Both the position numbers and the translations under genes were made by a program. 64,000 nt of DNA, taken from Kiritimatiellia bacterium. Its GTDB lineage: Bacteria > Verrucomicrobiota > Kiritimatiellia > JAAZAB01. Location: assembly GCA_040767085.1 (NCBI GenBank), contig JAXGPF010000009.1:196486-260485 (forward strand). The letters run 5' to 3'. Below, piece by piece: positions 37,373-48,008 of this stretch. Under the pieces are notes generated by a model. That model was not told where the DNA came from. It worked only from the letters and a program-made list of their open reading frames with translations, and did no database searches. The stretch's first letter is position 1. Each line of letters starts with the position of its first letter.

Positions 37373-37449
37373 TGGTGGAGGATAAGGGAGTCGAACCCTC
37401 GACCTCTTGAATGCCATTCAAGCGCTCTAGCCAACTGAGCTAATCCCCC
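37373..37449 (-). tRNA. tRNA-Ala (GGC)
   Basis: GGGGGATTAGCTCAGTTGGCTAGAGCGCTTGAATGGCATTCAAGAGGTCGAGGGTTCGACTCCCTTATCCTCCACCA: full cloverleaf, G3:U70, A32-U38, encoded CCA. Confidence 0.98.
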
Positions 37450-37509: not shown

Positions 37510-38895
37510 TGTCGTAAACAAATGACTTGGCCGCATAATTAACAAATGATTTGTCCGCTTAAAGCTGTCAGGATGGTGCATTCAAAGGGGGGTTATATGG
37601 ATGAATATCCGAAGGCAGCACTGGAGCGGGCAATGAAGGTACAGGAAGTGATCTTGCGTGCGATTGAAGGGCGGTTAATGTGGTGGGAGGCGGCGGAGAT
37701 ACTAGGTGTGAGCTACCGGACCATGCGGCGCTGGAAAGGGCGCTACGAGCGGTATGGTTACGACGGGCTGCTGGATCGTCGGCGGAAGATACCGGGGCCG
37801 CGGCGCGTGCCCCTTGCGACGGTGAAGCAGGTGCTGAGGTTGTACCGAGAAGAATACATGGATTTCAATGTGAGGCATTTTCACGAGAAGCTGCAGGCGG
37901 AGCATGGGATCGAGCTCAGTTATCAGTGGGTCAAGAGCGCCTTGCAGACGGCCGGGTTGGTGGCGAAGGCCCGGAAACGAGGGCCGCATCGGCAGCAGCG
38001 GGAACGGCGACCAATGGCGGGGATGATGTTGATGGTGGATGGCAGCACCCATGCCTGGTTGCCCCTGCTGGCGGGCCAGAAGCAGGATCTGATCCTGGTG
38101 ATGGACGATGCCACCAGCGAAGTCTACACGGCCTATCTTGTGCCCCAGGAAGGGACATTAACGGTGATGAAGGGGTTGAAAGAAGTCATTATTAAACATG
38201 GGGTTTTCTGCAGTCTGTACACGGATCGTGGCAGTCATTTCTTTTATACGCCCAAAGAAGGCGGGGCGGTGGACCGGCGTCAATTGACGCAAATTGGACG
38301 GGCGTTGCAACAGTTGGGGATCGAACATATTCCGAGCTATAGCCCCCAGGGACGTGGGCGAATAGAGCGGATGTTTAAGACCTGGCAAGGGCGCCTGCCG
38401 CAGGAATTAAGGCAGGCGGGAATCCGGACGATGGCCGAGGCCAACGTCTATATTCAACAACAGTTTCTGCCTTCCTTCAATCGCAACATGAAGGTGAAGG
38501 CGCGGGAAACAGGAACGTGTTTCGTGCCTTGCGGTGAGCAGGATTTGGACAGCATTTTCTGTGTGCAGCATGCGCGAGAGGTTCAAAATGACAATACCGT
38601 GGCTGTCGGGAGTCGCCGCTTGCAGATTGGACCATCAAAATGGCGTTTCAGCTTCGCCAAGTGCCGGGTTAAAGTCTGCGAGCACCTCGATGGCACGGTG
38701 TCCATCCGTTATGGCCCGCATGTGGTTGGCCGCTACCAAGGACCGTTGAACATTTCGGCGTCGCTGGAGGACGTCGCATAAACTTTTTCCTCCCCCGCGG
38801 GGGAGGAAAATCCTCACCCCAGGAGCAACAACACACAATAACAAATCGGACAGATCACTTGTTACAAAAAGCGGACACTTGACTTGTTACGAACA
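37510..38895 (+). mobile_element. Insertion sequence, IS1202-family-like (formerly ISNCY)
   Basis: TGT...ACA ends, imperfect IRs (TGTCGTAAACAAATGACTTGGCCGC vs TGTTCGTAACAAGTCAAGTGTCCGC), 15-bp direct repeat TGGTTTTTTTAAATG at 37495-37509 and 38896-38910. Confidence 0.9.
37597..38781 (+). CDS. DDE transposase (HTH plus integrase core)
   Basis: EAAEILGVSYRTMRRW HTH; VDGSTH, YTDRGSHF, GRIERMF triad. Confidence 0.93.
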   Translation: MDEYPKAALERAMKVQEVILRAIEGRLMWWEAAEILGVSYRTMRRWKGRYERYGYDGLLDRRRKIPGPRRVPLATVKQVLRLYREEYMDFNVRHFHEKLQAEHGIELSYQWVKSALQTAGLVAKARKRGPHRQQRERRPMAGMMLMVDGSTHAWLPLLAGQKQDLILVMDDATSEVYTAYLVPQEGTLTVMKGLKEVIIKHGVFCSLYTDRGSHFFYTPKEGGAVDRRQLTQIGRALQQLGIEHIPSYSPQGRGRIERMFKTWQGRLPQELRQAGIRTMAEANVYIQQQFLPSFNRNMKVKARETGTCFVPCGEQDLDSIFCVQHAREVQNDNTVAVGSRRLQIGPSKWRFSFAKCRVKVCEHLDGTVSIRYGPHVVGRYQGPLNISASLEDVA

Positions 38896-39220
38896 TGGTT
38901 TTTTTAAATGGAGCCAATTTCAAAAGTCCCCCGGCGGGTTTATCCCGCCGGAGACCAAGGTTATGCAAAACGCCACGTGTTGCTCAAAAACAACATCTTG
39001 TATTTTTGCATGACCTTTCGTTCCTGCCACGCAAGGTGGCAGGGGACGACTTTTGAAATTGAATCACTGGTTTTTATATAATAATTCGCGGCATTTTCCC
39101 GAATGCATTCCGGTTTTCCCTTGCCGTTTACGCATGCCGCTTGCGGGCAAAGTTTTGCGCTTGCCGCGCCCTGGCGTGGATTGAATGATCCGGCTCCGAG
39201 CGCCATTTTTGGCGGCGGCT

Positions 39221-39463
39221 TCAATCGTCAAGCTTCCCGGCTTTATCCAGTGGGATCGGTTCATGCTTCTGAATTTCAATGGCGCTTTGCCGCTGGCGAT
39301 CATTCGGCTGAAAGGCATCCACGAGCGCCATCGTGACATCCACCAGCTCCGCCGACTTGTACCTCGCCAGGGTATCCTTGTCCCACTTGGAGACAATTAA
39401 GCCGACGTCCGCAGCCTTGGCAATCTCCGGCATCTGATCCTTGATGTGCAATTGACTGGTCAT
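39221..39463 (-). pseudogene. 80-aa ORF, possibly the C-terminal remnant of a larger (OmpH/Skp-like?) protein
   Basis: ATGA overlap with the GAF gene stop; HIKDQMPEIAKAADVGLIVSKWD...VDVTMALV reads like a C-terminal half. Family assignment is from memory only. Confidence 0.3.
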
Positions 39464-40143
39464 TCCCATGCCCCCATCTCCATTTTGTAGCATTCCGGGC
39501 AGATTCCGTGCGAAAGCATGGTGCCGGAGATATCACAGACGTATTCTTCCACCGTAACCCATTTGCCTGTTTTCCCTCTGATTTTCTTGCAATAGCTGCA
39601 TATCGGATATATTTTACTTAAATCATCGAGCAAACGGTCGCGGCGGTTTATTTCCTCTCTTGCTAAAATGATTCGAAGCGATAATTCAATCATTTTTTTA
39701 ATCTGCTCGACCAGTCTGATGTGCAGGTCATTATGCGCATTCTGCTTGTTGTCTATGAAACAGACTGTCCCGAACTGCCCTCCATCGGGGCGGTTGATCG
39801 GCAGCCCAAGATACGAGATCATATGCAGGTCGACGGCAGCAGCATTATCCTTCCAACGGACATCTTGTGTTGCATCAGGAATCAGATTAAGGCCTTTGCT
39901 CTTCAGTGTATGTTCGCAGAACCATCCGGAATTCGGGTAGCGGGATTTGAACGCTGTGGAATATGGATTGTTTTCCGTCTCGCTGGATAGAAGAATCTCG
40001 ATTTCCTCCCCGTCCACGCGGGTAATCAGCCCGGCCGGAACACATATAATCTTAGCCGTATCGTTAAGCATGTTTTGCCATTCTTGCAAAACATCCTCGG
40101 TAAGCGTTTTATGATCGAAAGGGTTCGCATCCAGATTCTTCAT
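39460..40143 (-). CDS. GAF-domain protein with C-terminal Cys-rich domain
   Basis: SYLGLPINRPDGGQFGTVCFID GAF motif; PICSYCKKIR...LSHGICPEC; GAGGAGG RBS. Confidence 0.85.
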   Translation of the reverse strand: MKNLDANPFDHKTLTEDVLQEWQNMLNDTAKIICVPAGLITRVDGEEIEILLSSETENNPYSTAFKSRYPNSGWFCEHTLKSKGLNLIPDATQDVRWKDNAAAVDLHMISYLGLPINRPDGGQFGTVCFIDNKQNAHNDLHIRLVEQIKKMIELSLRIILAREEINRRDRLLDDLSKIYPICSYCKKIRGKTGKWVTVEEYVCDISGTMLSHGICPECYKMEMGAWE

Positions 40144-40278
40144 ATCCTCCTCTCAACAACAGGTTTGTCGGCAATCAGGACAAGTTCAGCCTTCACGCGC
40201 TGAGGAAGCCGTACCCGGCGCATTTGCCGGAGCGTAGCGCGCCGGGGAACGGCACGGCTTGGTCCCTGGTTCTGCAGT

Positions 40279-40791
40279 TTACCGCTCTTGCTCCGTCGCC
40301 GGCTTTGCTTGTTTGAGTTCTTTGGTCAGGGCTTGGATTTTTGGCATGATCTGCATCATTATCTTCTGGGTTATTTCCATGGACCGTTGCATCAATTCCG
40401 GCTGCTTCTTGATGAATGCCTGGCCGGCCGGGGATTTGTAGAAGGCGACCGTGTCCTTCAACTCCTGCTCGGTGAACGTTTCCGCATAAAGAGCAATGTA
40501 GTCGCCCTTCATCTTCTCCCAGCTCAATTCCGCGGCGATCATGTCCATCATCTTTTCCATGTGGCCGATCGCATTTGCGGGCATGTTCGTCGCGCCCGCG
40601 GTCTCTTTCATTTTTTCCATCTGCGCCGGGATCATTTGCTTCACCATTGCGAATGACTTTTCAATGGTGTCCTGCATGTTCATGAGAGTCAGGAGTTCTT
40701 CCGCTATTGCACGGCGCTGCGTCTCTTGCGCATGCACTCCGCACACTCCCATCACCAAGATCGCCGCGATCGAGCTGACCATCCTGATCAT
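40279..40791 (-). CDS. DUF2059-like exported protein
   Basis: Signal peptide; LYAETFTEQELKDTVAFYKSPAGQ motif. Confidence 0.8.
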   Translation of the reverse strand: MIRMVSSIAAILVMGVCGVHAQETQRRAIAEELLTLMNMQDTIEKSFAMVKQMIPAQMEKMKETAGATNMPANAIGHMEKMMDMIAAELSWEKMKGDYIALYAETFTEQELKDTVAFYKSPAGQAFIKKQPELMQRSMEITQKIMMQIMPKIQALTKELKQAKPATEQER

Positions 40792-40960
40792 ACCGCCTCC
40801 TCTTTTCCGACTCCGGGACCTTCTCGTTTTCGGCCAGGCACATGGGTCCCTTGCATGTTGCTGTCGCAGGCGGCGCGTTGCGGTGTACGGTCCGGCCGCC
40901 GGCTTAATGCTCGTCTCTCTTTTATATTTGCTTCCCGGCAATTACACAGAGTCATGCCGA

Positions 40961-42025
40961 TCAAACGCGGGCATAATGGATGGTGAACAGGGCAAAATAC
41001 TCATCGTCATAACAACTGGAATCGCACCGGCATTCGAATTCCGGCCGTAATTCCTGCTCGAACAATGCCAACCATTGCCGGCGCAGCATGTGGTAATCAT
41101 TGCGGCAGCCGCGCGCCTGGGTCAGCAACGAAACCACCTCGGTCATCAGGAACCGGTCAACGCAATCCCGGGCGACTTCCACCGGGGCGTCATGCGAGAA
41201 CACAAAATCGGTCATCCGGGCATAGGATTGATAAATTGAGAGAGCCAATTCCGGCGTGTGCAGTTCAGGCAAATCATTATTGGCATCCAATTCGAACAGG
41301 ATCAAATTATCCAGATGCGGTTTTAATTCGCGCAAATGCGCAATTTTCTGTTCATAAGTCATATGGTGATAGGAAAGCGAACAGACGGCCAGATCGAACA
41401 TCCCTTCCAACCGGCCGGCGATTTCTTCGATCCGACCTTGCAGCACATTGATTTTCGCGCCGGGCAACGCCCCGCCCACCGTGCGGCGGGCCAGTTCCAG
41501 CATGCCGGCGGACGGATCAACCAGCAGAATTTCACCGATGTCGCCTACCCGCCCGGCATCGCGGAGATGTTGAAGCAGGCGGACGGTGAGGCCGCCGTCG
41601 CCGCAGCCAATATCCAGCATGCGCAGCGGTTTTTTCCGCGCTGACAGCGAGTGGGCGCATTGCTCCATAAATTTCCGGCGCGATTCGCGCATGACCGGCA
41701 CGGTGGTAAAATGCACATACGGCCGCGGATCGGCAAACACCTGTTCGGGCATTGCCAGGCGGCCGGCGTGCCGCTCAAGGAACCCGGTCAAAAACGTGTT
41801 CAAAAACAGTCCGTCATCCTCAATCATGGCGCCGGCGGTCATCCAGGCGCGGCCGGCGTCGGTATTGCCACCGGCCGCCAGCATGGTTCCGCAGTAAAAA
41901 TCGAATGCCGGACGCAGGTTGTTCCGCGCGGCATAAGGCGATTGCCCGGGCGCCAGGTTGTTTGCGCGGATTTCATCGAACCAATCAACCCATTGTTTTT
42001 TTTCAGCTGAAGACAAAAACAACAT
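40961..42025 (-). CDS. Class I SAM-dependent methyltransferase
   Basis: MLDIGCGDG, VDPSAGML, SLSYHHM. Confidence 0.85.
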   Translation of the reverse strand: MLFLSSAEKKQWVDWFDEIRANNLAPGQSPYAARNNLRPAFDFYCGTMLAAGGNTDAGRAWMTAGAMIEDDGLFLNTFLTGFLERHAGRLAMPEQVFADPRPYVHFTTVPVMRESRRKFMEQCAHSLSARKKPLRMLDIGCGDGGLTVRLLQHLRDAGRVGDIGEILLVDPSAGMLELARRTVGGALPGAKINVLQGRIEEIAGRLEGMFDLAVCSLSYHHMTYEQKIAHLRELKPHLDNLILFELDANNDLPELHTPELALSIYQSYARMTDFVFSHDAPVEVARDCVDRFLMTEVVSLLTQARGCRNDYHMLRRQWLALFEQELRPEFECRCDSSCYDDEYFALFTIHYARV

Positions 42026-42065
42026 GCCGGTCTCCTTGTCTTAAGCGCAATCAGACTCACGGCCC

Positions 42066-42122
42066 GGCCAGGCACTGCGCGCCTGGCCGGCAAGCCGGAC
42101 ACGCGGTGCCCGGCAGTTCGGC
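42066..42122 (-). repeat. Truncated attC (outer arm of the long family) closing the mazEF cassette
   Basis: Inverse core GCCGAAC (42122-42116) about 10 bp after the mazF stop; adjacent ~50 bp homologous to 47320-47370. Confidence 0.7.
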
Positions 42123-42132
42123 CTCCATTTTC

Positions 42133-42474
42133 TCAAAATTCGAGCAGTGCCCCGACTTTGTTCAGAACCTCCTGCACGGTTTCTTCCGGGACGCGACACA
42201 GAAACGTTGCCCCGCGCATATGCCAGTCCATGCTCTTGACCTGATCGGAGAGTGCTGCTCCCGATGCCTTTAGCCCCGCTGGAATCAGTACCTCGAAAGG
42301 ATATCCCTTGATTTGATTTGTGAGGGGGCATAGGATTGCCAGACCTACCTTGCGGTTGTAGGACTCGGGCGACAGGACGAGGGCTAACCGATGACCTGCT
42401 TGCTCATGTCCTGCCTGCGGGTTGAATGAAATCCACACAACGTCACCTCGCTTCGGGCAGTACGCGGGCATCAC
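42133..42474 (-). CDS. mazF: MazF endoribonuclease toxin
   Basis: PKRGDVVWISFNPQAGHEQAGHRLALVLSP..YN, KGYPFEV, DQVKSMDW. Confidence 0.93.
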   Translation of the reverse strand: MMPAYCPKRGDVVWISFNPQAGHEQAGHRLALVLSPESYNRKVGLAILCPLTNQIKGYPFEVLIPAGLKASGAALSDQVKSMDWHMRGATFLCRVPEETVQEVLNKVGALLEF

Positions 42475-42716
42475 CAGACCTCCCGTCCCACAGCCGCGCC
42501 GGTCTTGACCTCCGAATGGACATTACGTTCTGTCACACCTTTGAGCAGATCTTCCAACCGGGGCTTTGGCTCCGCATGCCGGGGTTCAATAACGATCTTC
42601 CCATCGTTGAGGAACAGATTGACCGGTGTCCCATAAGCAACGCGAGCCTCTTCGACAAACGCCTTGGGAATTCGAACCGCCAAGCTGTTTCCCCACTTTT
42701 GAATCTTCGTTTGCAT
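42471..42716 (-). CDS. mazE: MazE (AbrB-fold) antitoxin
   Basis: MQTKIQKWGNSLAVRIPK, C-terminal VGREVW; overlaps the mazF start. Confidence 0.93.
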   Translation of the reverse strand: MQTKIQKWGNSLAVRIPKAFVEEARVAYGTPVNLFLNDGKIVIEPRHAEPKPRLEDLLKGVTERNVHSEVKTGAAVGREVW

Positions 42717-42731
42717 GATCCCCCCCCTTCC

Positions 42732-42772
42732 GTGTCTACAAAGAAGATACGACAAAGCGCACCGAGAAACAA
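42732..42772 (-). promoter_or_regulatory. mazEF promoter/operator
   Basis: TTGTTT-N17-TATCTT with an overlapping imperfect palindrome GTATCTTCTTTGTAGACAC. Confidence 0.65.
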
Positions 42773-42785
42773 GAACTTTCCTCCC

Positions 42786-42845
42786 GCCGAACGTCCCGGC
42801 ATCATGCTGAGCGCGTAGCGCGATCGCATGATGCCATTATTCGGT
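42786..42845 (-). repeat. Short attC site (60 bp)
   Basis: ACCGAAT-AAT-GGCATCATGC...GCATGATGCC-GGGAC-GTTCGGC; begins at the stop of the upstream ORF. Confidence 0.72.
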
Positions 42846-43741
42846 CATTTTATTTGTCGGATACCTAGGCCTGGCCCTTGTTCCTGCAATGAAGTTGTTG
42901 AGCGCCCCTGCTTCTGTTTTGCACCAAGCGTTTTAATCTTTGTTTGGCCTGCTGCGCATGGAGGGGTACGGGTTCCATAGATGATGTAATTGTTGACGTC
43001 GTCAATCGTAAACCCGGCGGGAGTCATGTCGGCGATAAAAACACCAAGCGGGTGGCGGTTGGAGCCGAATTTATCACGGCCTGCTTTTTTGGCAACATCA
43101 ATTTGGAGTTTCATCAACTCCCAGCTAACGGCGGTTTTCATATCGTGTCCCGTGTACACGCTTAGCCCGATCACAGGTTTCGTCCCGGCGCTGTAGTTTG
43201 TAAGGCATAATATTATCCAATCATAGATTTCGGCCGCGGTTGTTTTCTTTTCGCAGGTCGGGTATGTCATCTCCACAAGCTGAAGCCGCGGATGGTTCGC
43301 GATAATGGCGAGCGCGGCGGGATCCCAGGTCAGCCTGTTATTCCATTGAATCACCGAAAGCCCCGCCCGCTCGTCAATGCTGTTAACAAACTCCTGCGCC
43401 TGCTCTGCGCCGGTCTTTGCCGACCAGTTCTCATGGTCGGTGGCCAGGAGCCGGGCATTTTGAGCGTAATTATCCTTGATGCCCTCGATGCAAGTGTTGA
43501 TCTTGTCGGTGTCGCCAACCTGCCTGTGCATGCGCCGCGCTTCATACTCTTTCTTGTATGGGCCTTGATACGCAATGGTCCACGATGCCACCATGTTCGC
43601 GGTTTTACAGTTGGCCCGGCCATGCGCGTTGCCAATCCACCAATGAACAGGATATGCCGCGGTATCGTCCGCCGGCGCGGGCATCGTAAGCATCGATACT
43701 GACAGAACCACCGCTATTCCAGCGCGCCATAATGTTTTCAT
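42845..43741 (-). CDS. Hypothetical secreted protein (cassette ORF)
   Basis: 298-aa ORF with signal peptide and lower GC; no recognised family. Confidence 0.7.
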   Translation of the reverse strand: MKTLWRAGIAVVLSVSMLTMPAPADDTAAYPVHWWIGNAHGRANCKTANMVASWTIAYQGPYKKEYEARRMHRQVGDTDKINTCIEGIKDNYAQNARLLATDHENWSAKTGAEQAQEFVNSIDERAGLSVIQWNNRLTWDPAALAIIANHPRLQLVEMTYPTCEKKTTAAEIYDWIILCLTNYSAGTKPVIGLSVYTGHDMKTAVSWELMKLQIDVAKKAGRDKFGSNRHPLGVFIADMTPAGFTIDDVNNYIIYGTRTPPCAAGQTKIKTLGAKQKQGRSTTSLQEQGPGLGIRQIK

Positions 43742-44060
43742 ATTTGTCTATCTGAAACAATCAACTTCCCGACGCTCTTAACGCATTCCTGATTTATTTC
43801 ATTCGAACCGTATTATCATTTTATAGGACCCTCTGCCTGATCATTTTAAATAACCCTCTGTCTGCCCTCTGTCTGCAAATATGCTTCACGTCTTGACGCG
43901 CCGCCGGTAATTCAACAGTTACGCTGGCCAATTCCGCGCGCTCCATCCCGAACCATTACCCTATAGGGCGCGTTGTCCCACACGCGTCTTCATGAACCAT
44001 GGATTAGTCACCGACCCCTCGCGGACTCGGAGTTGGAACTAATCCTTGTTTTGTTGAGCC

Positions 44061-44534
44061 TCAGTTGTCATCGGTGTAGACGATCTGAGGCTTTCCGTCG
44101 CGTTCTTTGAGCACAAGCACCAGCAGTCCATGCCCCGATCTCTCGGACACGCTGAAAACCAGGAGGCAGCCGATCGCGTCCTCCATCTGTCCGGCGACGC
44201 GCGTGTCTTTCCACATATTGTCAGGATAGCGTCCGTCAAGAGTGGCCACGTCATCACCTCGAAAAAATATAATCTCCTCGATTTGGAAGAGGCGGAACAT
44301 GGCCGGGTCCTGGTTGCGCAGGGATTCAACCGCGGATCCCTTGCCTCTTCCTTTTATCTGGGCATCCGGATGAAAGAATTGCAGAGCGTACTCCCGGTCC
44401 CCCTCCAGGATGAGAGCGTTTATCGTCGCCAAGGCAACGCGTCGGGCGACACGTTCATCGGGGACACCCGCGATAGCCTTGGACACGATCACTCCTGTCA
44501 GCATGATGGCGGTCAACATACGAGCATGGTTCAT
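44061..44534 (-). CDS. Hypothetical exported protein (cassette ORF)
   Basis: [10 protein letters not shown], signal peptide; starts just after the GTTGGAC core site. Confidence 0.7.
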   Translation of the reverse strand: MNHARMLTAIMLTGVIVSKAIAGVPDERVARRVALATINALILEGDREYALQFFHPDAQIKGRGKGSAVESLRNQDPAMFRLFQIEEIIFFRGDDVATLDGRYPDNMWKDTRVAGQMEDAIGCLLVFSVSERSGHGLLVLVLKERDGKPQIVYTDDN

Positions 44535-44557
44535 TCCTGTCTCCTTTCGTTCCTGTG

Positions 44558-44707
44558 GTCCAACGGTGAACTGTTGATCGCAACTGACGGAGACCGGAAG
44601 CTTGGCTTCCGGGCGCACGTCAATTGATCTCAACGGCTATTTAGACCAGGCGCTACTCGCCTGGCAGGCAAGCCGTGCAAGCTGTGCTCGCAAGTTCGCC
44701 GTTAGGC
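44558..44707 (-). repeat. Long attC site (150 bp)
   Basis: GCCTAACGGCGAACT...AGTTCACCGTTGGAC; homologous to 46773-46920 and 47233-47379. Confidence 0.8.
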
Positions 44708-44849
44708 GGCGGTCAGGCGTGTGGTAAAGCGTCGCCTGCACCGGCTAATTCGGCTGTGGCTTCTGTTTCCACGGGTTATCTTCAATGCGCCCGCCGGTGT
44801 CACCCCGGATCGAAGCGCCGTCAAATCAGCCACCATGGCGTACGGGCGA

Positions 44850-45977
44850 TTAAGGCAACCACTTTTTGACCATTATACTTGCAACTTCATCAACAGCTTG
44901 CTCGGCATCTGAGCCGCCAATGTTGGTTGCGATGACGACGGCAAAATCCTTCTCCGGCGCGAGCCAGATACTCATGTACCAGAACGTATTTGAGCCGTTG
45001 TGCCAAAGCGCCTTCCCGCCTGCCCAGTCGCGTTTGAAGCAGAGCCAGCCGCAGGCATAATCACCGCCTTCCGGCGGGGTGTGCAGTTTCCGAACGGTCT
45101 CCGCCTTCAATAAGCCGTCTTCCCTCTCGCCTTCCATCGGGAAGATCGCGTAGCGCGCAAGGTCGTCCAGCGAACAATGCACTCTACCGGCAGGCGCAAT
45201 CGCGGGCGGATTGTCCTTCTGACTCGGAGTCGTAAAACACAGCGTCTTGGTATGGCCCCAAGGCTGATCAACTTGGTTCTTCGTTCCGGGAGGGCCGAAT
45301 CCCGCGGACTCCATGTGCAGTGGCTTGAAAAGCTTCTCGATGATGAGAGACTCCCACGAAAGACCGGATATCCTTTCCAGCATCGCGCCAATGATCGCGT
45401 AACCTTGGTTTGAGTAGATCATCTTCGTTCCCGGCGGAGCTGCTAGCGGTTTGGCAAGAACGGCTTGTATGAACTGCTGACGTTGTTGTGCCGGCGTGCC
45501 ATTCTCCTCCCAAGCGCGCACCCACGCGAGCGTGGGTGGCTTGCCCGGAACGCCGCCACGATGCGTGAGCAACTGCTCGACTGTCACGGTCTCATACTGC
45601 TTGTCCATTTTGCCTTTCCAATCTGGGAACACCTCGGCAATGGCGGTATCCCAGCGCAACCGGCCTTCCTCGATGAACATGGCCGCAAGCGTTGCCGTCA
45701 TGGACTTGGTGCAGGAGCCTATGTGGAACTGGTCATTGGTTGTAACCGGAGTGGGATTGCCGTTCTTGCGGACGCCCAAGGCGCCGCGGTCGCAGATCTT
45801 GCCGTCTTTCACGACAACGACGGCCAGTGCAGGTAATTTGTGCTTGTCGCGAATCCCCGCCAATGCCTGCATGGTATCCAGAGATGATGCTGGCGTGACC
45901 GGGACTTGAGCCGCTACCTGGAACGACAGGCACAGCGCCACGACCGGAATTCCATACAATCCTTTTCGCGATCTCAT
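44850..45977 (-). CDS. Serine hydrolase, beta-lactamase/AmpC-like family (cassette ORF)
   Basis: SCTK (SxxK), YSN, HNGS; signal peptide. Confidence 0.88.
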   Translation of the reverse strand: MRSRKGLYGIPVVALCLSFQVAAQVPVTPASSLDTMQALAGIRDKHKLPALAVVVVKDGKICDRGALGVRKNGNPTPVTTNDQFHIGSCTKSMTATLAAMFIEEGRLRWDTAIAEVFPDWKGKMDKQYETVTVEQLLTHRGGVPGKPPTLAWVRAWEENGTPAQQRQQFIQAVLAKPLAAPPGTKMIYSNQGYAIIGAMLERISGLSWESLIIEKLFKPLHMESAGFGPPGTKNQVDQPWGHTKTLCFTTPSQKDNPPAIAPAGRVHCSLDDLARYAIFPMEGEREDGLLKAETVRKLHTPPEGGDYACGWLCFKRDWAGGKALWHNGSNTFWYMSIWLAPEKDFAVVIATNIGGSDAEQAVDEVASIMVKKWLP

Positions 45978-45997
45978 TTACTGCCCCATCCCTGCGC

Positions 45998-46052
45998 CGC
46001 CCACGTTCCGGCGCACCAGCGGCGCGATGAACGACGCAGGCGCCGGTTGTTG
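45998..46052 (-). repeat. Short attC site with damaged core (GT-GGGC)
   Basis: CAACAAC 3 bp after the stop, CCGGCGC/GCGCCGG stem, ends ...GGAACGTGGGCGGC. Confidence 0.6.
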
Positions 46053-46055
46053 GTC

Positions 46056-46760
46056 TTACGGGTTCCCTAAGTATGTCGCAGGAATCTTCGTCTCCTCAAT
46101 GGCGCCTTCAACCTGCCGGACTCTATACGCCAGCGCGCCAGGCCTGGAACTCACAATATGAGCAAGTTTCCGCCCTATAAAGTGCAGAGCCACACCATCG
46201 TCTGCAGCCAGACCGGCCTTCATGCGCCCTTGCATGATGAATCCCTGGTACGCAGGCCGTCGTGTTGACTCGCCGTCATAGTGAGGACTGTGGCTGCCGC
46301 GCAGAAAACCAAGGCACGGCAGGACCGTCAACTTGCCCGGGACAGAGTCCGTCAGCCCCTCATCAAACCAGCAAATCGAACCGGCGCTGATGCCGCCAAG
46401 GAGCACGCCCTTCCGCCAAGCCTTGCGGAGAATCCGGTCCAATCGCCATTCGCGCCAGAGGGCGAGCAGGCTTTTCGTGTTCCCGCCACCGACATAGATG
46501 GCGTCTTGCGACAGGATGAAGCCCTCCAGGTCTGCGGGCGGGCGAAACATCGAGAGGTGGGTGGGCGTGCAGGGCAACTGGTTGAACGCCTCATAGAATT
46601 TCACGATGTAGCAGTCAGCATCGCCCGATGCGGTAGGCACAAAACAGACGGCAGGTTTCCTCTTCCCGGTTTGCGCAAGGAAATATCGGTCCAGAAGCGG
46701 GTTATCGGGTTCCATCGAGAACCCGCCGCCACCCATCGCAATGATCTGTTGTCTTTTCAT
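46056..46760 (-). CDS. Peptidase S51 (dipeptidase E-like) (cassette ORF)
   Basis: IIAMGGGGFS, FVPTASGD, IYVGGGNT, GISAGS, PHYD. Confidence 0.9.
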   Translation of the reverse strand: MKRQQIIAMGGGGFSMEPDNPLLDRYFLAQTGKRKPAVCFVPTASGDADCYIVKFYEAFNQLPCTPTHLSMFRPPADLEGFILSQDAIYVGGGNTKSLLALWREWRLDRILRKAWRKGVLLGGISAGSICWFDEGLTDSVPGKLTVLPCLGFLRGSHSPHYDGESTRRPAYQGFIMQGRMKAGLAADDGVALHFIGRKLAHIVSSRPGALAYRVRQVEGAIEETKIPATYLGNP

Positions 46761-46772
46761 TTTTGTCGTCTC

Positions 46773-46920
46773 GGACAACGGTGAACTGTTGAGCGCAATT
46801 GACGGAGACCGACAACTTGGCTTCCAGGCGAACGGCAGTTGATCTCTAACGGATTGTTAGGCCAGGTGCTGGTCGCTTGGCCGTCAAGCCGGTCGAGTGG
46901 TGCTCTGCACTTGGTTCTGC
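46773..46920 (-). repeat. Long attC site (148 bp)
   Basis: GCAGAAC...internal GCCTAAC...AGTTCACCGTTGTCC; overlaps the 3' end of the upstream ORF. Confidence 0.8.
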
Positions 46921-47216
46921 GATTCCTCTTGTCTGATTGCCTGTTGCCTTCGGTTGCCACAAACAATGCCAAGAGGCAGCAAAATACTGTATGGAATCCA
47001 CATGAACCAGCGGTATGGATTGGGCAATGCAATAAGCAACCCGAGGAAGAGCAGGATAGCGATCCAGCACACGAGTGCCGATTTGATCATGAAAGAATGC
47101 TCGCGTGGCCCGTTGGTGTGTTTGATACTGAAATAGGTTCCGGCGATTCCGCCGGCGAGTCCGATAACGCTCCCGGCGAGTCCGCCAATCCATCCCCACA
47201 TTGCTCCAGTGTTCAT
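46884..47216 (-). CDS. Small 3-TM membrane protein (cassette ORF)
   Basis: GWIGGLAGSVIGLAGGIAGTYFSIKHTNGPRE; three hydrophobic segments; AAAGGA RBS immediately after the core site. Confidence 0.75.
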   Translation of the reverse strand: MNTGAMWGWIGGLAGSVIGLAGGIAGTYFSIKHTNGPREHSFMIKSALVCWIAILLFLGLLIALPNPYRWFMWIPYSILLPLGIVCGNRRQQAIRQEESQNQVQSTTRPA

Positions 47217-47232
47217 TATCATCATCCTTTCC

Positions 47233-47379
47233 GCAGAACGGCGAACTGTTGAGCGCAACTGACGAAGACCGGGAACTTGACTTCCGGGCTAATGGCAGTT
47301 GAGCTCGAAAGGCTTGTTAGGCCACGCACTGCGCGCCTGGCCTGCAAACCGGGCAAGCGGTGCTCGGCAATCTTTGTCG
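47233..47379 (-). repeat. Long attC site, first in the array (outer inverse core degenerate)
   Basis: Internal GCCTAACAAGCCTTTCGAG...CTCAACAGTTCGCCGTTCTGC. Confidence 0.75.
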
Positions 47380-48008
47380 AAATTAATGATGCGCCTGTTT
47401 TCCGAATCTGTCCAGCGTAATTTTTCGCCATTATCCCAGTTTTGAGATGCCTGTGCCTTTTGTGACTAAATATTTCCGGTTTCGGGCTTTTCCCATCTAT
47501 CTGAAACAAACGATAAACACCCACACACTTTATTTTCCGCTCCCTCCTTCGTGCCCTTCGTGTTCTTCGTGGTTAAATCAGAAAAGGGGCAGTATCTGGC
47601 TCTTTCGCGTTCCTTGTGTCTTTTGTGGTGAATTCCTTCCCTCCGTTGATCAAAGGCACAGAGGGGCAAAGTGTTCTGTTTTCAGGCGTAAAACCTTAAA
47701 ACGGTAAACCTTAAAACATACGCCGAACTTACGCCGCCCCCGGTTCGCCCTCCAGCCGGCGGCCGTGGCGCGGACCGCGCTGGCGATGCTGGCCGCGCTA
47801 ACCAACGTACCGGAAAAGAACGGCTCCGTCTTAGACGTCGCCCTACCCGCCCGGCTCCGCGGATCATGCCATGGGCATGACAAGGGCGTTTATCCCGCCC
47901 CTGGCGGGATCGCCCTGCCCGAAAATATCATTTGACAATCTGAAACAATTCCGCATGCTTGCTTGGTTCTTTGTAAATACCGGGACGCCGGATTTAGGTT
48001 CAACTGTC

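What the first reader, a model, noticed from the sequence alone, without database searches (positions are those of the whole stretch)
42066..47379. Integrase-less integron cassette array (CALIN) of about six cassettes
Seen: co-oriented minus-strand ORFs separated by hairpin sites. Each unit's leading GTT core matches the inverse core just after its own ORF: GTTCTGC (47239-47233) with GCAGAAC (46920-46914); GTTGTCC (46779-46773) with CAACAAC (46052-46046); GT-GGGCGGC (46004-45996) with GCCGCCTAAC (44710-44701); GTTGGAC (44564-44558) with TTCCAAC (44038-44032); GTTCGGG (43953-43947) with ACCGAAT (42845-42839); GTTCGGC (42792-42786) with GCCGAAC (42122-42116). Established: this within-cassette R'/R'' complementarity is the signature of circular cassettes integrated at G|TT by IntI. 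Inference: a relic array carrying a membrane protein, S51 peptidase, serine hydrolase, two exported unknowns and mazEF, with no intI in the window.
Basis: partly seen in the sequence, partly recalled or inferred. Interest (0 to 1): 0.85.

Follow-up and report, generated by a model that had tools for sequence, protein, structure and literature searches.

The report
Decayed cassette array with mini-cassette relics
This is a real but worn-out integron gene-cassette array with no working integrase found in the genome, and four of its supposed recombination sites are broken copies of a tiny, gene-free, self-folding cassette found in integrons of many uncultured bacteria.

Summary
The CALIN call is right in kind but several site assignments are wrong. 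All twelve motifs are at the stated coordinates. No intact intI was found in the 95%-complete genome, only a deleted, frameshifted remnant on another contig. Two core pairs (5/7) are no better than chance, and site E shows no attC fold. The repeated sites A, B, D and G are 80-84% identical relics of a 164-bp gene-less cassette. It is intact, exactly at a G|TT crossover behind a complete attC, in two metagenome contigs. Its layout is hairpin, inverted mini-attC, hairpin, attC. I found it in 46 contexts across several phyla, with outer arms that vary together. One copy interrupts an acetyl-CoA-synthetase-like gene at G|AT. Best reading: a selfish IntI passenger that fused onto gene cassettes and decayed. 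Boldest reading: a portable attI-like landing pad that seeds CALINs. I did not find it in print (8 searches), but this scan had already noted what reads as the same family on other DNA.

The parts
47237..47369 (-). Relic A of the gene-less mini-cassette (inverted mini-attC, second hairpin, attC; first hairpin lost); head of the array; crossover G|TT at 47239
   Evidence: 84% over positions 35-167 of intact L228 element, E 9e-36; top hit of family profile R2, 21.6 bits
46884..47239 (-). Cassette 1: small membrane-type protein of about 112 aa, no Pfam family; own cores GTTCTGC / GCAGAAC (46920-46914)
   Evidence: homologue is a canonical cassette in G022:C42
46777..46912 (-). Relic B, fused to the native R'' plus 4 spacer bases of cassette 1's own attC
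   Evidence: 83% over 32-167 of intact element; native attC start seen in G022
46056..46779 (-). Cassette 2: peptidase S51 (234 aa)
   Evidence: PF03575 E 4.9e-52; a 71% homologue in G177 has no attC
45998..46055 (-). Site C: degraded ordinary attC (GTT reduced to GT)
   Evidence: R1 9.9 bits, E 2.8, right strand, full model length; z -1.1
44850..45977 (-). Cassette 3: exported serine hydrolase of the beta-lactamase fold (375 aa), far below class C cut-offs
   Evidence: PF00144 E 8e-55; NCBIfam; best homologue (G271, 44%) is followed by a canonical attC
44709..44757 (-).
   Evidence: R1 12.4 bits over model 12-62; z -2.6; sequence
44559..44711 (-). Relic D, the most complete copy; begins in the right arm of the first hairpin
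   Evidence: 83% over 17-170 of intact element, E 1e-39; R2 14.1 bits; alignment A3
44032..44564 (-). Cassette 4: exported unknown protein (157 aa, 44061-44534) with lone R''-like box at 44038-44032; site E has no attC body
42845..43741 (-). Exported unknown protein (298 aa); family of 18 proteins without Pfam match; 5' cassette boundary not recognisable
42786..42845 (-). Site F: slightly degraded ordinary attC (AAC changed to AAT, extrahelical base lost)
   Evidence: R1 20.8 bits, E 0.012, best hit in window; z -5.4
42116..42792 (-). Cassette 6: mazE (42471-42716) and mazF (42133-42471)
   Evidence: PF04014, PF02452; NF007386 over cut-off; cores 7/7
42041..42120 (-). Relic G: inverted mini-attC and second hairpin, attC body deleted, short L' remnant at 42050-42041
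   Evidence: 80% over 30-84 of intact element; alignment A3
40190..40791 (-).
   Evidence: PF09832; cassette with attC in G011 and G001, followed by a mini-cassette relic at the same locus in G002

Best explanation
A decayed CALIN. IntI once inserted gene cassettes here, upstream of tRNA-Ala, alternating with copies of a 164-bp gene-less cassette. The genome's integrase, at another locus, then broke and the array froze and eroded. SHOWN: the sites' sequences; homology of A, B, D and G to an intact element that sits at G|TT crossovers; the element's layout (hairpin, inverted mini-attC, hairpin, attC); its wide spread and multi-copy state; the deleted intI. INFERRED: the element is a selfish passenger that is excised and re-inserted by IntI at the R' crossover; its ends are held complementary so the single strand folds into an almost fully paired three-way junction; short deletions between shared core or spacer words removed its first hairpin and sometimes the neighbour's attC, leaving gene cassettes that end in a borrowed site. 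Confidence is about 0.88 for identity (CALIN plus relics) and about 0.55 for the selfish role.
For: Intact copies in L227 and L228 begin exactly at the GTT of a complete attC (R1 35.8 and 51.0 bits). Window relics match them at 80-84%. A profile built from 24 other members, without window or L227/L228 sequence, ranks A, D and B 1st, 3rd and 5th of 78 window hits. G027:C34, an intact integron, holds three near-identical full copies (first position and two internal) plus one fused to an ORF; G027:C65 holds one joined at AAC to a toxin-antitoxin-like cassette. G002's intact integron at the locus orthologous to the dead intI holds another member, and this genome holds a further member on C11. One copy interrupts an acs-like ORF at G|AT with no base lost, matching the GWT off-site target of Loot et al. 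(10.1101/2022.09.11.507474, passages). Arms match 111 of 120 positions in 10 arm types against a permutation mean of 78.9, 0 of 20000. The bottom strand is the more stable in 39 of 39.
Against: No excised circle or any joint was seen in 4 runs laid on the G027 array (contigs only). At equilibrium the canonical attC fold of the element is predicted to be suppressed in 39 of 39 (1e-5 to 1e-18), which does not obviously fit high mobility. The detector and the pattern both select for arm pairing, so the covariation figure is inflated, and related genomes are not independent. The 2nd and 4th R2 hits in the window are chance ORF matches, and the filtered whole-genome R2 search missed the window relics. 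Junction B lies 4 bases into the spacer, not at the IntI cut. IntegronFinder's own model could not be run.
Confidence: 0.75

Rival explanations
1. Portable landing pad: the fully paired outer fold imitates a double-stranded attI/attG core. After one off-site insertion the element would capture later cassettes right behind itself, seeding CALINs, and could also swap itself onto gene cassettes by top-strand cutting at its left AA|C.
For: 19 of 46 contexts have an AT-rich (65% or more) upstream stretch, read as the head of an array. In the 27 loci checked, an IntI hit within about 1.5 kb was found only in L151, plus a 33% recombinase hit in L112. Relic A heads this array. In the predicted circle the cut site lies inside an unbroken helix (39 of 39 take the outer fold; 5 structures printed). 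Sites without extrahelical bases can recombine on both strands (PMC5027507, section 13). An exact AAC junction exists in G027:C65.
Against: The AT-rich heads resemble the real attI ends of G002, G003 and G027 (by eye), so they may be orphan attI sites. There is no matched control for first-position frequency. Repeated internal copies fit plain re-insertion. No inverted neighbour cassette was noticed in the loci read.
Confidence: 0.17
2. Host-useful regulator: the element is kept because it tunes expression of downstream cassettes (promoter, road-block or small RNA), as shown for some ORF-less cassettes.
For: Frequent first position; promoter- or RNA-bearing ORF-less cassettes are known (PMC8876359, section 2.4.3 passage); Boucher et al. 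raise the same alternative (PMC1382264, passages).
Against: Promoter-like sites in 38800-48000 number 7 against 5.1 expected, and none lies inside a relic. The bottom, not the coding, strand is the better-folding one in 39 of 39. Insertion into an acs-like gene looks harmful.
Confidence: 0.13
3. The roughly 148-bp sites are simply one long, species-specific attC type (like Vibrio VCRs) belonging to each gene.
For: A, B and D are about 80% alike; B starts at the 7/7 partner core of its own cassette.
Against: The intact form stands alone between two crossovers. ORF1's native attC is a short canonical one. The hydrolase has its own attC before D. DUF2059 carries different 3' sites in four genomes.
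Confidence: 0.05
4. Not integron-related: REP/MITE-like repeats spread by a HUH (RAYT) or other transposase among unrelated island genes.
For: RAYT-like and IS91-like transposase ORFs neighbour some members (L114, L098, L167; labels recalled, not scanned).
Against: Insertions are exactly at attC crossovers or directly behind attI next to intact intI, with no target duplication at the acs-like site.
Confidence: 0.04

Closest known systems
[quoted passage not shown] 2016, PMC4889954)
   Same: At least two attC-type sites, co-oriented promoter-poor genes, a toxin-antitoxin cassette, no intI nearby; about the usual size (the paper gives 5 sites on average).
   Different: Most sites are too decayed for a canonical model; four junctions are relics of one gene-less element rather than each gene's attC.
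Paralogous non-coding cassettes of Vibrio chromosomal integrons (Boucher et al. 2006, PMC1382264) and ORF-less promoter cassettes (review PMC8876359)
   Same: No ORF, an attC at the 3' end, several copies per array; selfish versus regulatory role left open.
   Different: The passages read describe Vibrio-restricted or promoter-bearing cassettes. This family spans several phyla, and all its content is recombination-site-like: an inverted mini-attC whose arm pairs with the cassette's own R' end.
Empty cassette SuezGC14.1 (Elsaied et al. 2011, PMC3146285)
   Same: An attC-only cassette at first position in a sediment integron.
   Different: One case, called non-functional in the passage read; no double architecture described there. 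Its sequence (supplement) was not seen, so it could be a member.
Off-site insertion at attG sites (Loot et al., 10.1101/2022.09.11.507474)
   Same: One member sits at a GWT target inside a chromosomal gene; offers a route for arrays away from intI.
   Different: Shown there for ordinary cassettes in the laboratory; here inferred from one natural site near a contig end.

Membership tests
CALIN | At least two attC sites in a cluster | tested here: met
   F (E 0.012), weak C and hydrolase body with a model from relatives; relic attC halves homologous to an intact attC-ended element. Only F passes clearly on its own.
CALIN | No integron integrase nearby | tested here: met
   No TIGR02249 match over cut-off among 5 matches in G000; nearest tyrosine recombinase on C28 is over 200 kb away; remnant on C23. 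Genome 95% complete, 28 contigs.
CALIN | Detection by IntegronFinder's own attC model | not testable with these tools
   Model not available; substitute model R1 used.
Canonical attC (sites C, F, hydrolase body) | R'' and R' cores, paired L boxes with extrahelical base, bottom-strand hairpin | tested here: inconclusive
   Each has lost a feature: F the extrahelical base and AAC, C the GTT, the hydrolase body its R'.
Canonical attC (site E) | L boxes and hairpin between the cores | tested here: not met
   No R1 hit, z -0.5.
ORF-less integron cassette (intact L227, L228 and kin) | Short unit without its own gene, attC at 3' end, bounded by G|TT crossovers | tested here: met
   164 bp, between crossovers, inner attC with 6.5-8 of 8 L-box pairs.
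ORF-less integron cassette (window copies) | Complete unit from crossover to crossover | tested here: not met
   All four lack part of the first hairpin; G also lacks the attC body. They are relics.
ORF-less integron cassette | Moved by IntI | not testable with these tools
   Indirect only: crossover-exact insertions and near-identical copies; no circles seen.
Promoter-bearing ORF-less cassettes | Carries a functional promoter | tested here: inconclusive
   No sigma-70 match inside the relics; intact members not scanned; no assay.
Group IIC-attC introns / IS1111-attC insertions | Reverse transcriptase or transposase gene inside the attC | tested here: not met
   Sites are at most 154 bp and the ORFs between them match no such family.

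The most novel reading that the evidence does not exclude
The gene-less element is a self-contained, switchable recombination module. One fold is an attC that lets IntI insert it at attI or at GWT sites anywhere. The other is a bulge-free duplex that imitates attI and can be cut on either strand, so it founds integrase-less arrays and re-caps existing gene cassettes with its own site. This would give a concrete route for the unexplained abundance of CALINs and for attC replacement.
Probability: 0.17. Interest if true: 0.8.

Novelty: new variant of a known kind. Interest (0 to 1): 0.42.

Why it matters
The array itself is an ordinary, decayed CALIN. The useful part is the mini-cassette: a 147-199-bp natural IntI substrate seen across several phyla whose preferred fold lacks the bulges said to define attC. 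It is cheap to synthesise and test, it can be mistaken for attC sites when arrays are read, and it bears on two open questions: how CALINs arise away from intI and how cassettes change their attC. This window shows the decay products; better study material lies in intact integrons such as G027:C34, G002:C38 and G011:C130.

Tried and rejected
Rfam: only tRNA-Ala in the window. A 27-base exact pattern of the window's site found 0 in genome contigs. Class-wide gapped pattern: 26 of 401 genomes against 9 genomes for the reversed control; only G000, G011 and G027 looked real. Of 105 genome-contig hits, 80 were listed; about 32 of those 80 are members (22 new detector calls, 6 repeats of counted contexts, 4 by eye) and the rest are chance ORF hits, palindromes or an unrelated Bacteroidales repeat. 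Circular partition-function values were all zero (faulty) and were dropped; minimum-energy circles were used instead. Alignment A4 has one row in the wrong orientation and was used for no count. Read-laying on the G027 array gave no joints; loose ends at the element's left arm are ambiguous because the arms are palindromic; small-share runs are no evidence of habitat or transcription. ORF4 and ORF5 were not found in 250 other class genomes with these queries; Atlas hits for ORF4 are unnamed clusters; PADLOC gave only a methyltransferase-domain hit outside the array. 8 of 9 hydrolase homologue loci and the S51 homologue have no attC hit. The methyltransferase at 40961-42025 has no attC after it and occurs in several relatives: treated as not a cassette. 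My early idea that the inner GCCTAAC was a second R'' of a 'nested' long attC was replaced once the intact form was found. Papers: passages only of PMC4889954, PMC8876359, PMC8946536, PMC3146285, PMC1382264, PMC4792948 and 10.1101/2022.09.11.507474; passages and section 13 of PMC5027507; abstract and outline of PMC12901181; no supplements opened.
Full report
Observation. The ORFs are co-oriented in a stretch of 56% GC, against 64% and 68% in the flanks. Pfam confirms peptidase S51, a beta-lactamase-fold serine hydrolase, MazE and MazF; three ORFs have no family. The core pairs are uneven. ORF1 and mazEF match 7/7 (chance 0.006 and 0.018 within 100 nt), ORF4 6/7 (0.06), and S51 and ORF5 only 5/7, which occurs by chance 43% of the time.

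Integrase. No match in the genome reaches the TIGR02249 cut-off. The best one, on contig C23, keeps residues 394-484 of the intact 484-aa IntI of G002 with a frameshift. It lies before the same downstream gene as that intact integron, so the native integrase decayed in place. IntI over cut-off is present in 28 of 61 genomes searched. The genome is 95% complete, so a second integrase cannot be fully excluded. A model built from 51 attC sites of relatives' intact integrons gives 17 hits at E up to 1 on nine contigs of this genome, none inside the window (filtered): it holds several scattered arrays.

Sites in the window. E has no fold (z -0.5). A, B and D are about 80% identical over 130 bp, and G matches their left half.

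What the repeated sites are. A 25-base pattern from their right end found 2 metagenome contigs. Both hold the intact form: 164 bp that start exactly at the GTT of a complete attC and end at the next GTT, with no gene. The layout is a short hairpin bounded by R' and R'' cores, an inverted mini-attC, a second hairpin and a forward attC. The window copies match it at 83% (D, positions 17-170), 84% (A, 35-167), 83% (B, 32-167) and 80% (G, 30-84). This corrects three assignments. The 10-mer at 44710-44701 is the right arm of the first hairpin, joined to the hydrolase's own attC by a deletion. B keeps the native R'' and four spacer bases of ORF1's attC, whose full form is seen in G022. G is a relic with its attC body deleted. 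Further partial copies lie on C23 and C2, in G001, and at the same tRNA-Ala locus in G002 behind DUF2059.

The family. The same layout with other sequence appears four times in the intact integron G027:C34, once directly behind attI. It also appears in G011, G010, G042, G128, in G002's intact integron and on C11 of this genome. A gapped pattern over genome contigs gave 105 stretches, 80 listed, about 32 of them members. Their record titles include Deltaproteobacteria, Desulfobacterales, Smithellaceae, Syntrophales, Planctomycetota, Kiritimatiellae, Desantisbacteria, Auribacterota and one Thermoplasmatota bin, which may be mis-binned. A sequence-independent detector found 46 contexts (39 distinct bodies, 147-199 bp) in 1.45 Mb counted on both strands, and 0 in 0.43 Mb of shuffled loci. 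A profile from 24 members, with no window sequence, ranks A, D and B 1st, 3rd and 5th of 78 window hits; the 2nd and 4th are chance ORF matches. The left arm tracks the right end through substitutions, spacer-length changes and a GTT-to-ATT change: 111 of 120 positions pair in 10 arm types, against 78.9 under permutation, and RNAalifold shows one outer pair at 18 UA to 6 CG. Pattern and detector select for this pairing and kin are not independent, so the figure is an upper estimate; the variant arms were, however, first found by a profile or motif that did not require it.

How it most likely works. Folding predicts that on the bottom strand R' pairs with the left arm, not with its own R'', in 39 of 39; the canonical fold has probability 1e-5 to 1e-18, against a median 0.05 for the attC half alone. 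The bottom strand is the more stable in 39 of 39, and the predicted circle is a three-way junction with the cut site inside an unbroken helix. Both folds give the same crossover. That IntI moves it is inferred from crossover-exact ends, near-identical copies alternating with gene cassettes, and one copy inside an acetyl-CoA-synthetase-like ORF (family recognised from memory) at G|AT whose flanks join to an open frame (near a contig end). GWT is the reported off-site target (10.1101/2022.09.11.507474, passages). Bulge-free sites can still recombine, and on both strands (PMC5027507, section 13). The simplest reading is a selfish passenger. Against it, no circle or joint was seen in four contig sets, and the suppressed attC fold could equally be a lock. 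In this window, deletions between shared words fused the element to its neighbours, and loss of intI froze the array (inferred).

Position. 19 of 46 contexts have an AT-rich upstream stretch, mostly with no intI within about 1.5 kb, and relic A heads this array. This motivates the landing-pad reading, but those heads look like real attI ends and there is no matched control.

Comparison with what is known. CALINs are common and of this size (PMC4889954, passages). ORF-less and paralogous non-coding cassettes are known, with selfish and regulatory readings both proposed (PMC1382264, PMC8876359, passages), and one attC-only cassette was reported from sediment (PMC3146285, passage; supplement not seen). 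Eight full-text searches returned no description of a cassette with an inverted mini-attC pairing with its own end; most subscription papers are outside that library. Six earlier notes of this scan describe what reads as the same family on other DNA; they are unchecked and are not independent support.

Verdict. Its interest lies in four relics of an apparently undescribed but already scan-noted mini-cassette family. New variant of a known kind; interest 0.42.

Noticed in passing
G000:C23:157893-158045, C23:109505-109658, C2:219385-219537: A 150-bp element with a promoter-like pair of hexamers occurs three times at or in cassette arrays; twice it is fused to the attC half of the mini-cassette. 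Not found in 32 family genomes.
   Followed up: partly
window 37546-38781: IS481-type transposase between the array's far end and tRNA-Ala(GGC) at 37373-37449.
   Followed up: no
window 38910-39066: A REP/MITE-like hairpin repeat that recurs many times in this genome and genus, including directly after intI in G002 and after the intI remnant on C23.
   Followed up: no
window 47515-47755: Low-complexity purine-rich repeats that also precede the C23 array and recur in this genus.
   Followed up: no
window 40961-42025: Methyltransferase-domain gene inside the island, 96% identical to a G001 copy that is followed by cassettes, while the rest of the island has no close match there.
   Followed up: partly
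window 39221-39493: C-terminal part of a longer exported protein that is an attC-ended cassette in G001:C276.
   Followed up: partly
L039 6560-8014 and table: IntI in this class often sits in open frames of 430-490 aa; the G002 protein has about 170 residues ahead of the TIGR02249 match.
   Followed up: no
L098, L167: Two copies of the mini-cassette follow an identical IS91-like transposase end (label recalled) on two contigs of one genome.
   Followed up: no
L218, L222, L204: Members whose crossover reads A|TT rather than G|TT, with a matching change in the left arm.
   Followed up: partly
L206, L208, L226: Collapsed forms of the mini-cassette in which internal repeats have recombined, leaving one hairpin plus a bulge-poor stem.
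   Followed up: no
L093, L095, L101, L105, L109, L118, L122 and others: An unrelated AT-rich Bacteroidales repeat family with terminal inverted repeats that fits the search pattern.
   Followed up: no
L016 (G001:C63:1-1050): A CRISPR-like repeat array directly upstream of a small cassette array that begins with a mini-cassette relic.
   Followed up: no
window 42845-43741: Exported 298-aa protein of an unnamed family (18 proteins, 46-57% identity, no Pfam for the shared part).
   Followed up: partly
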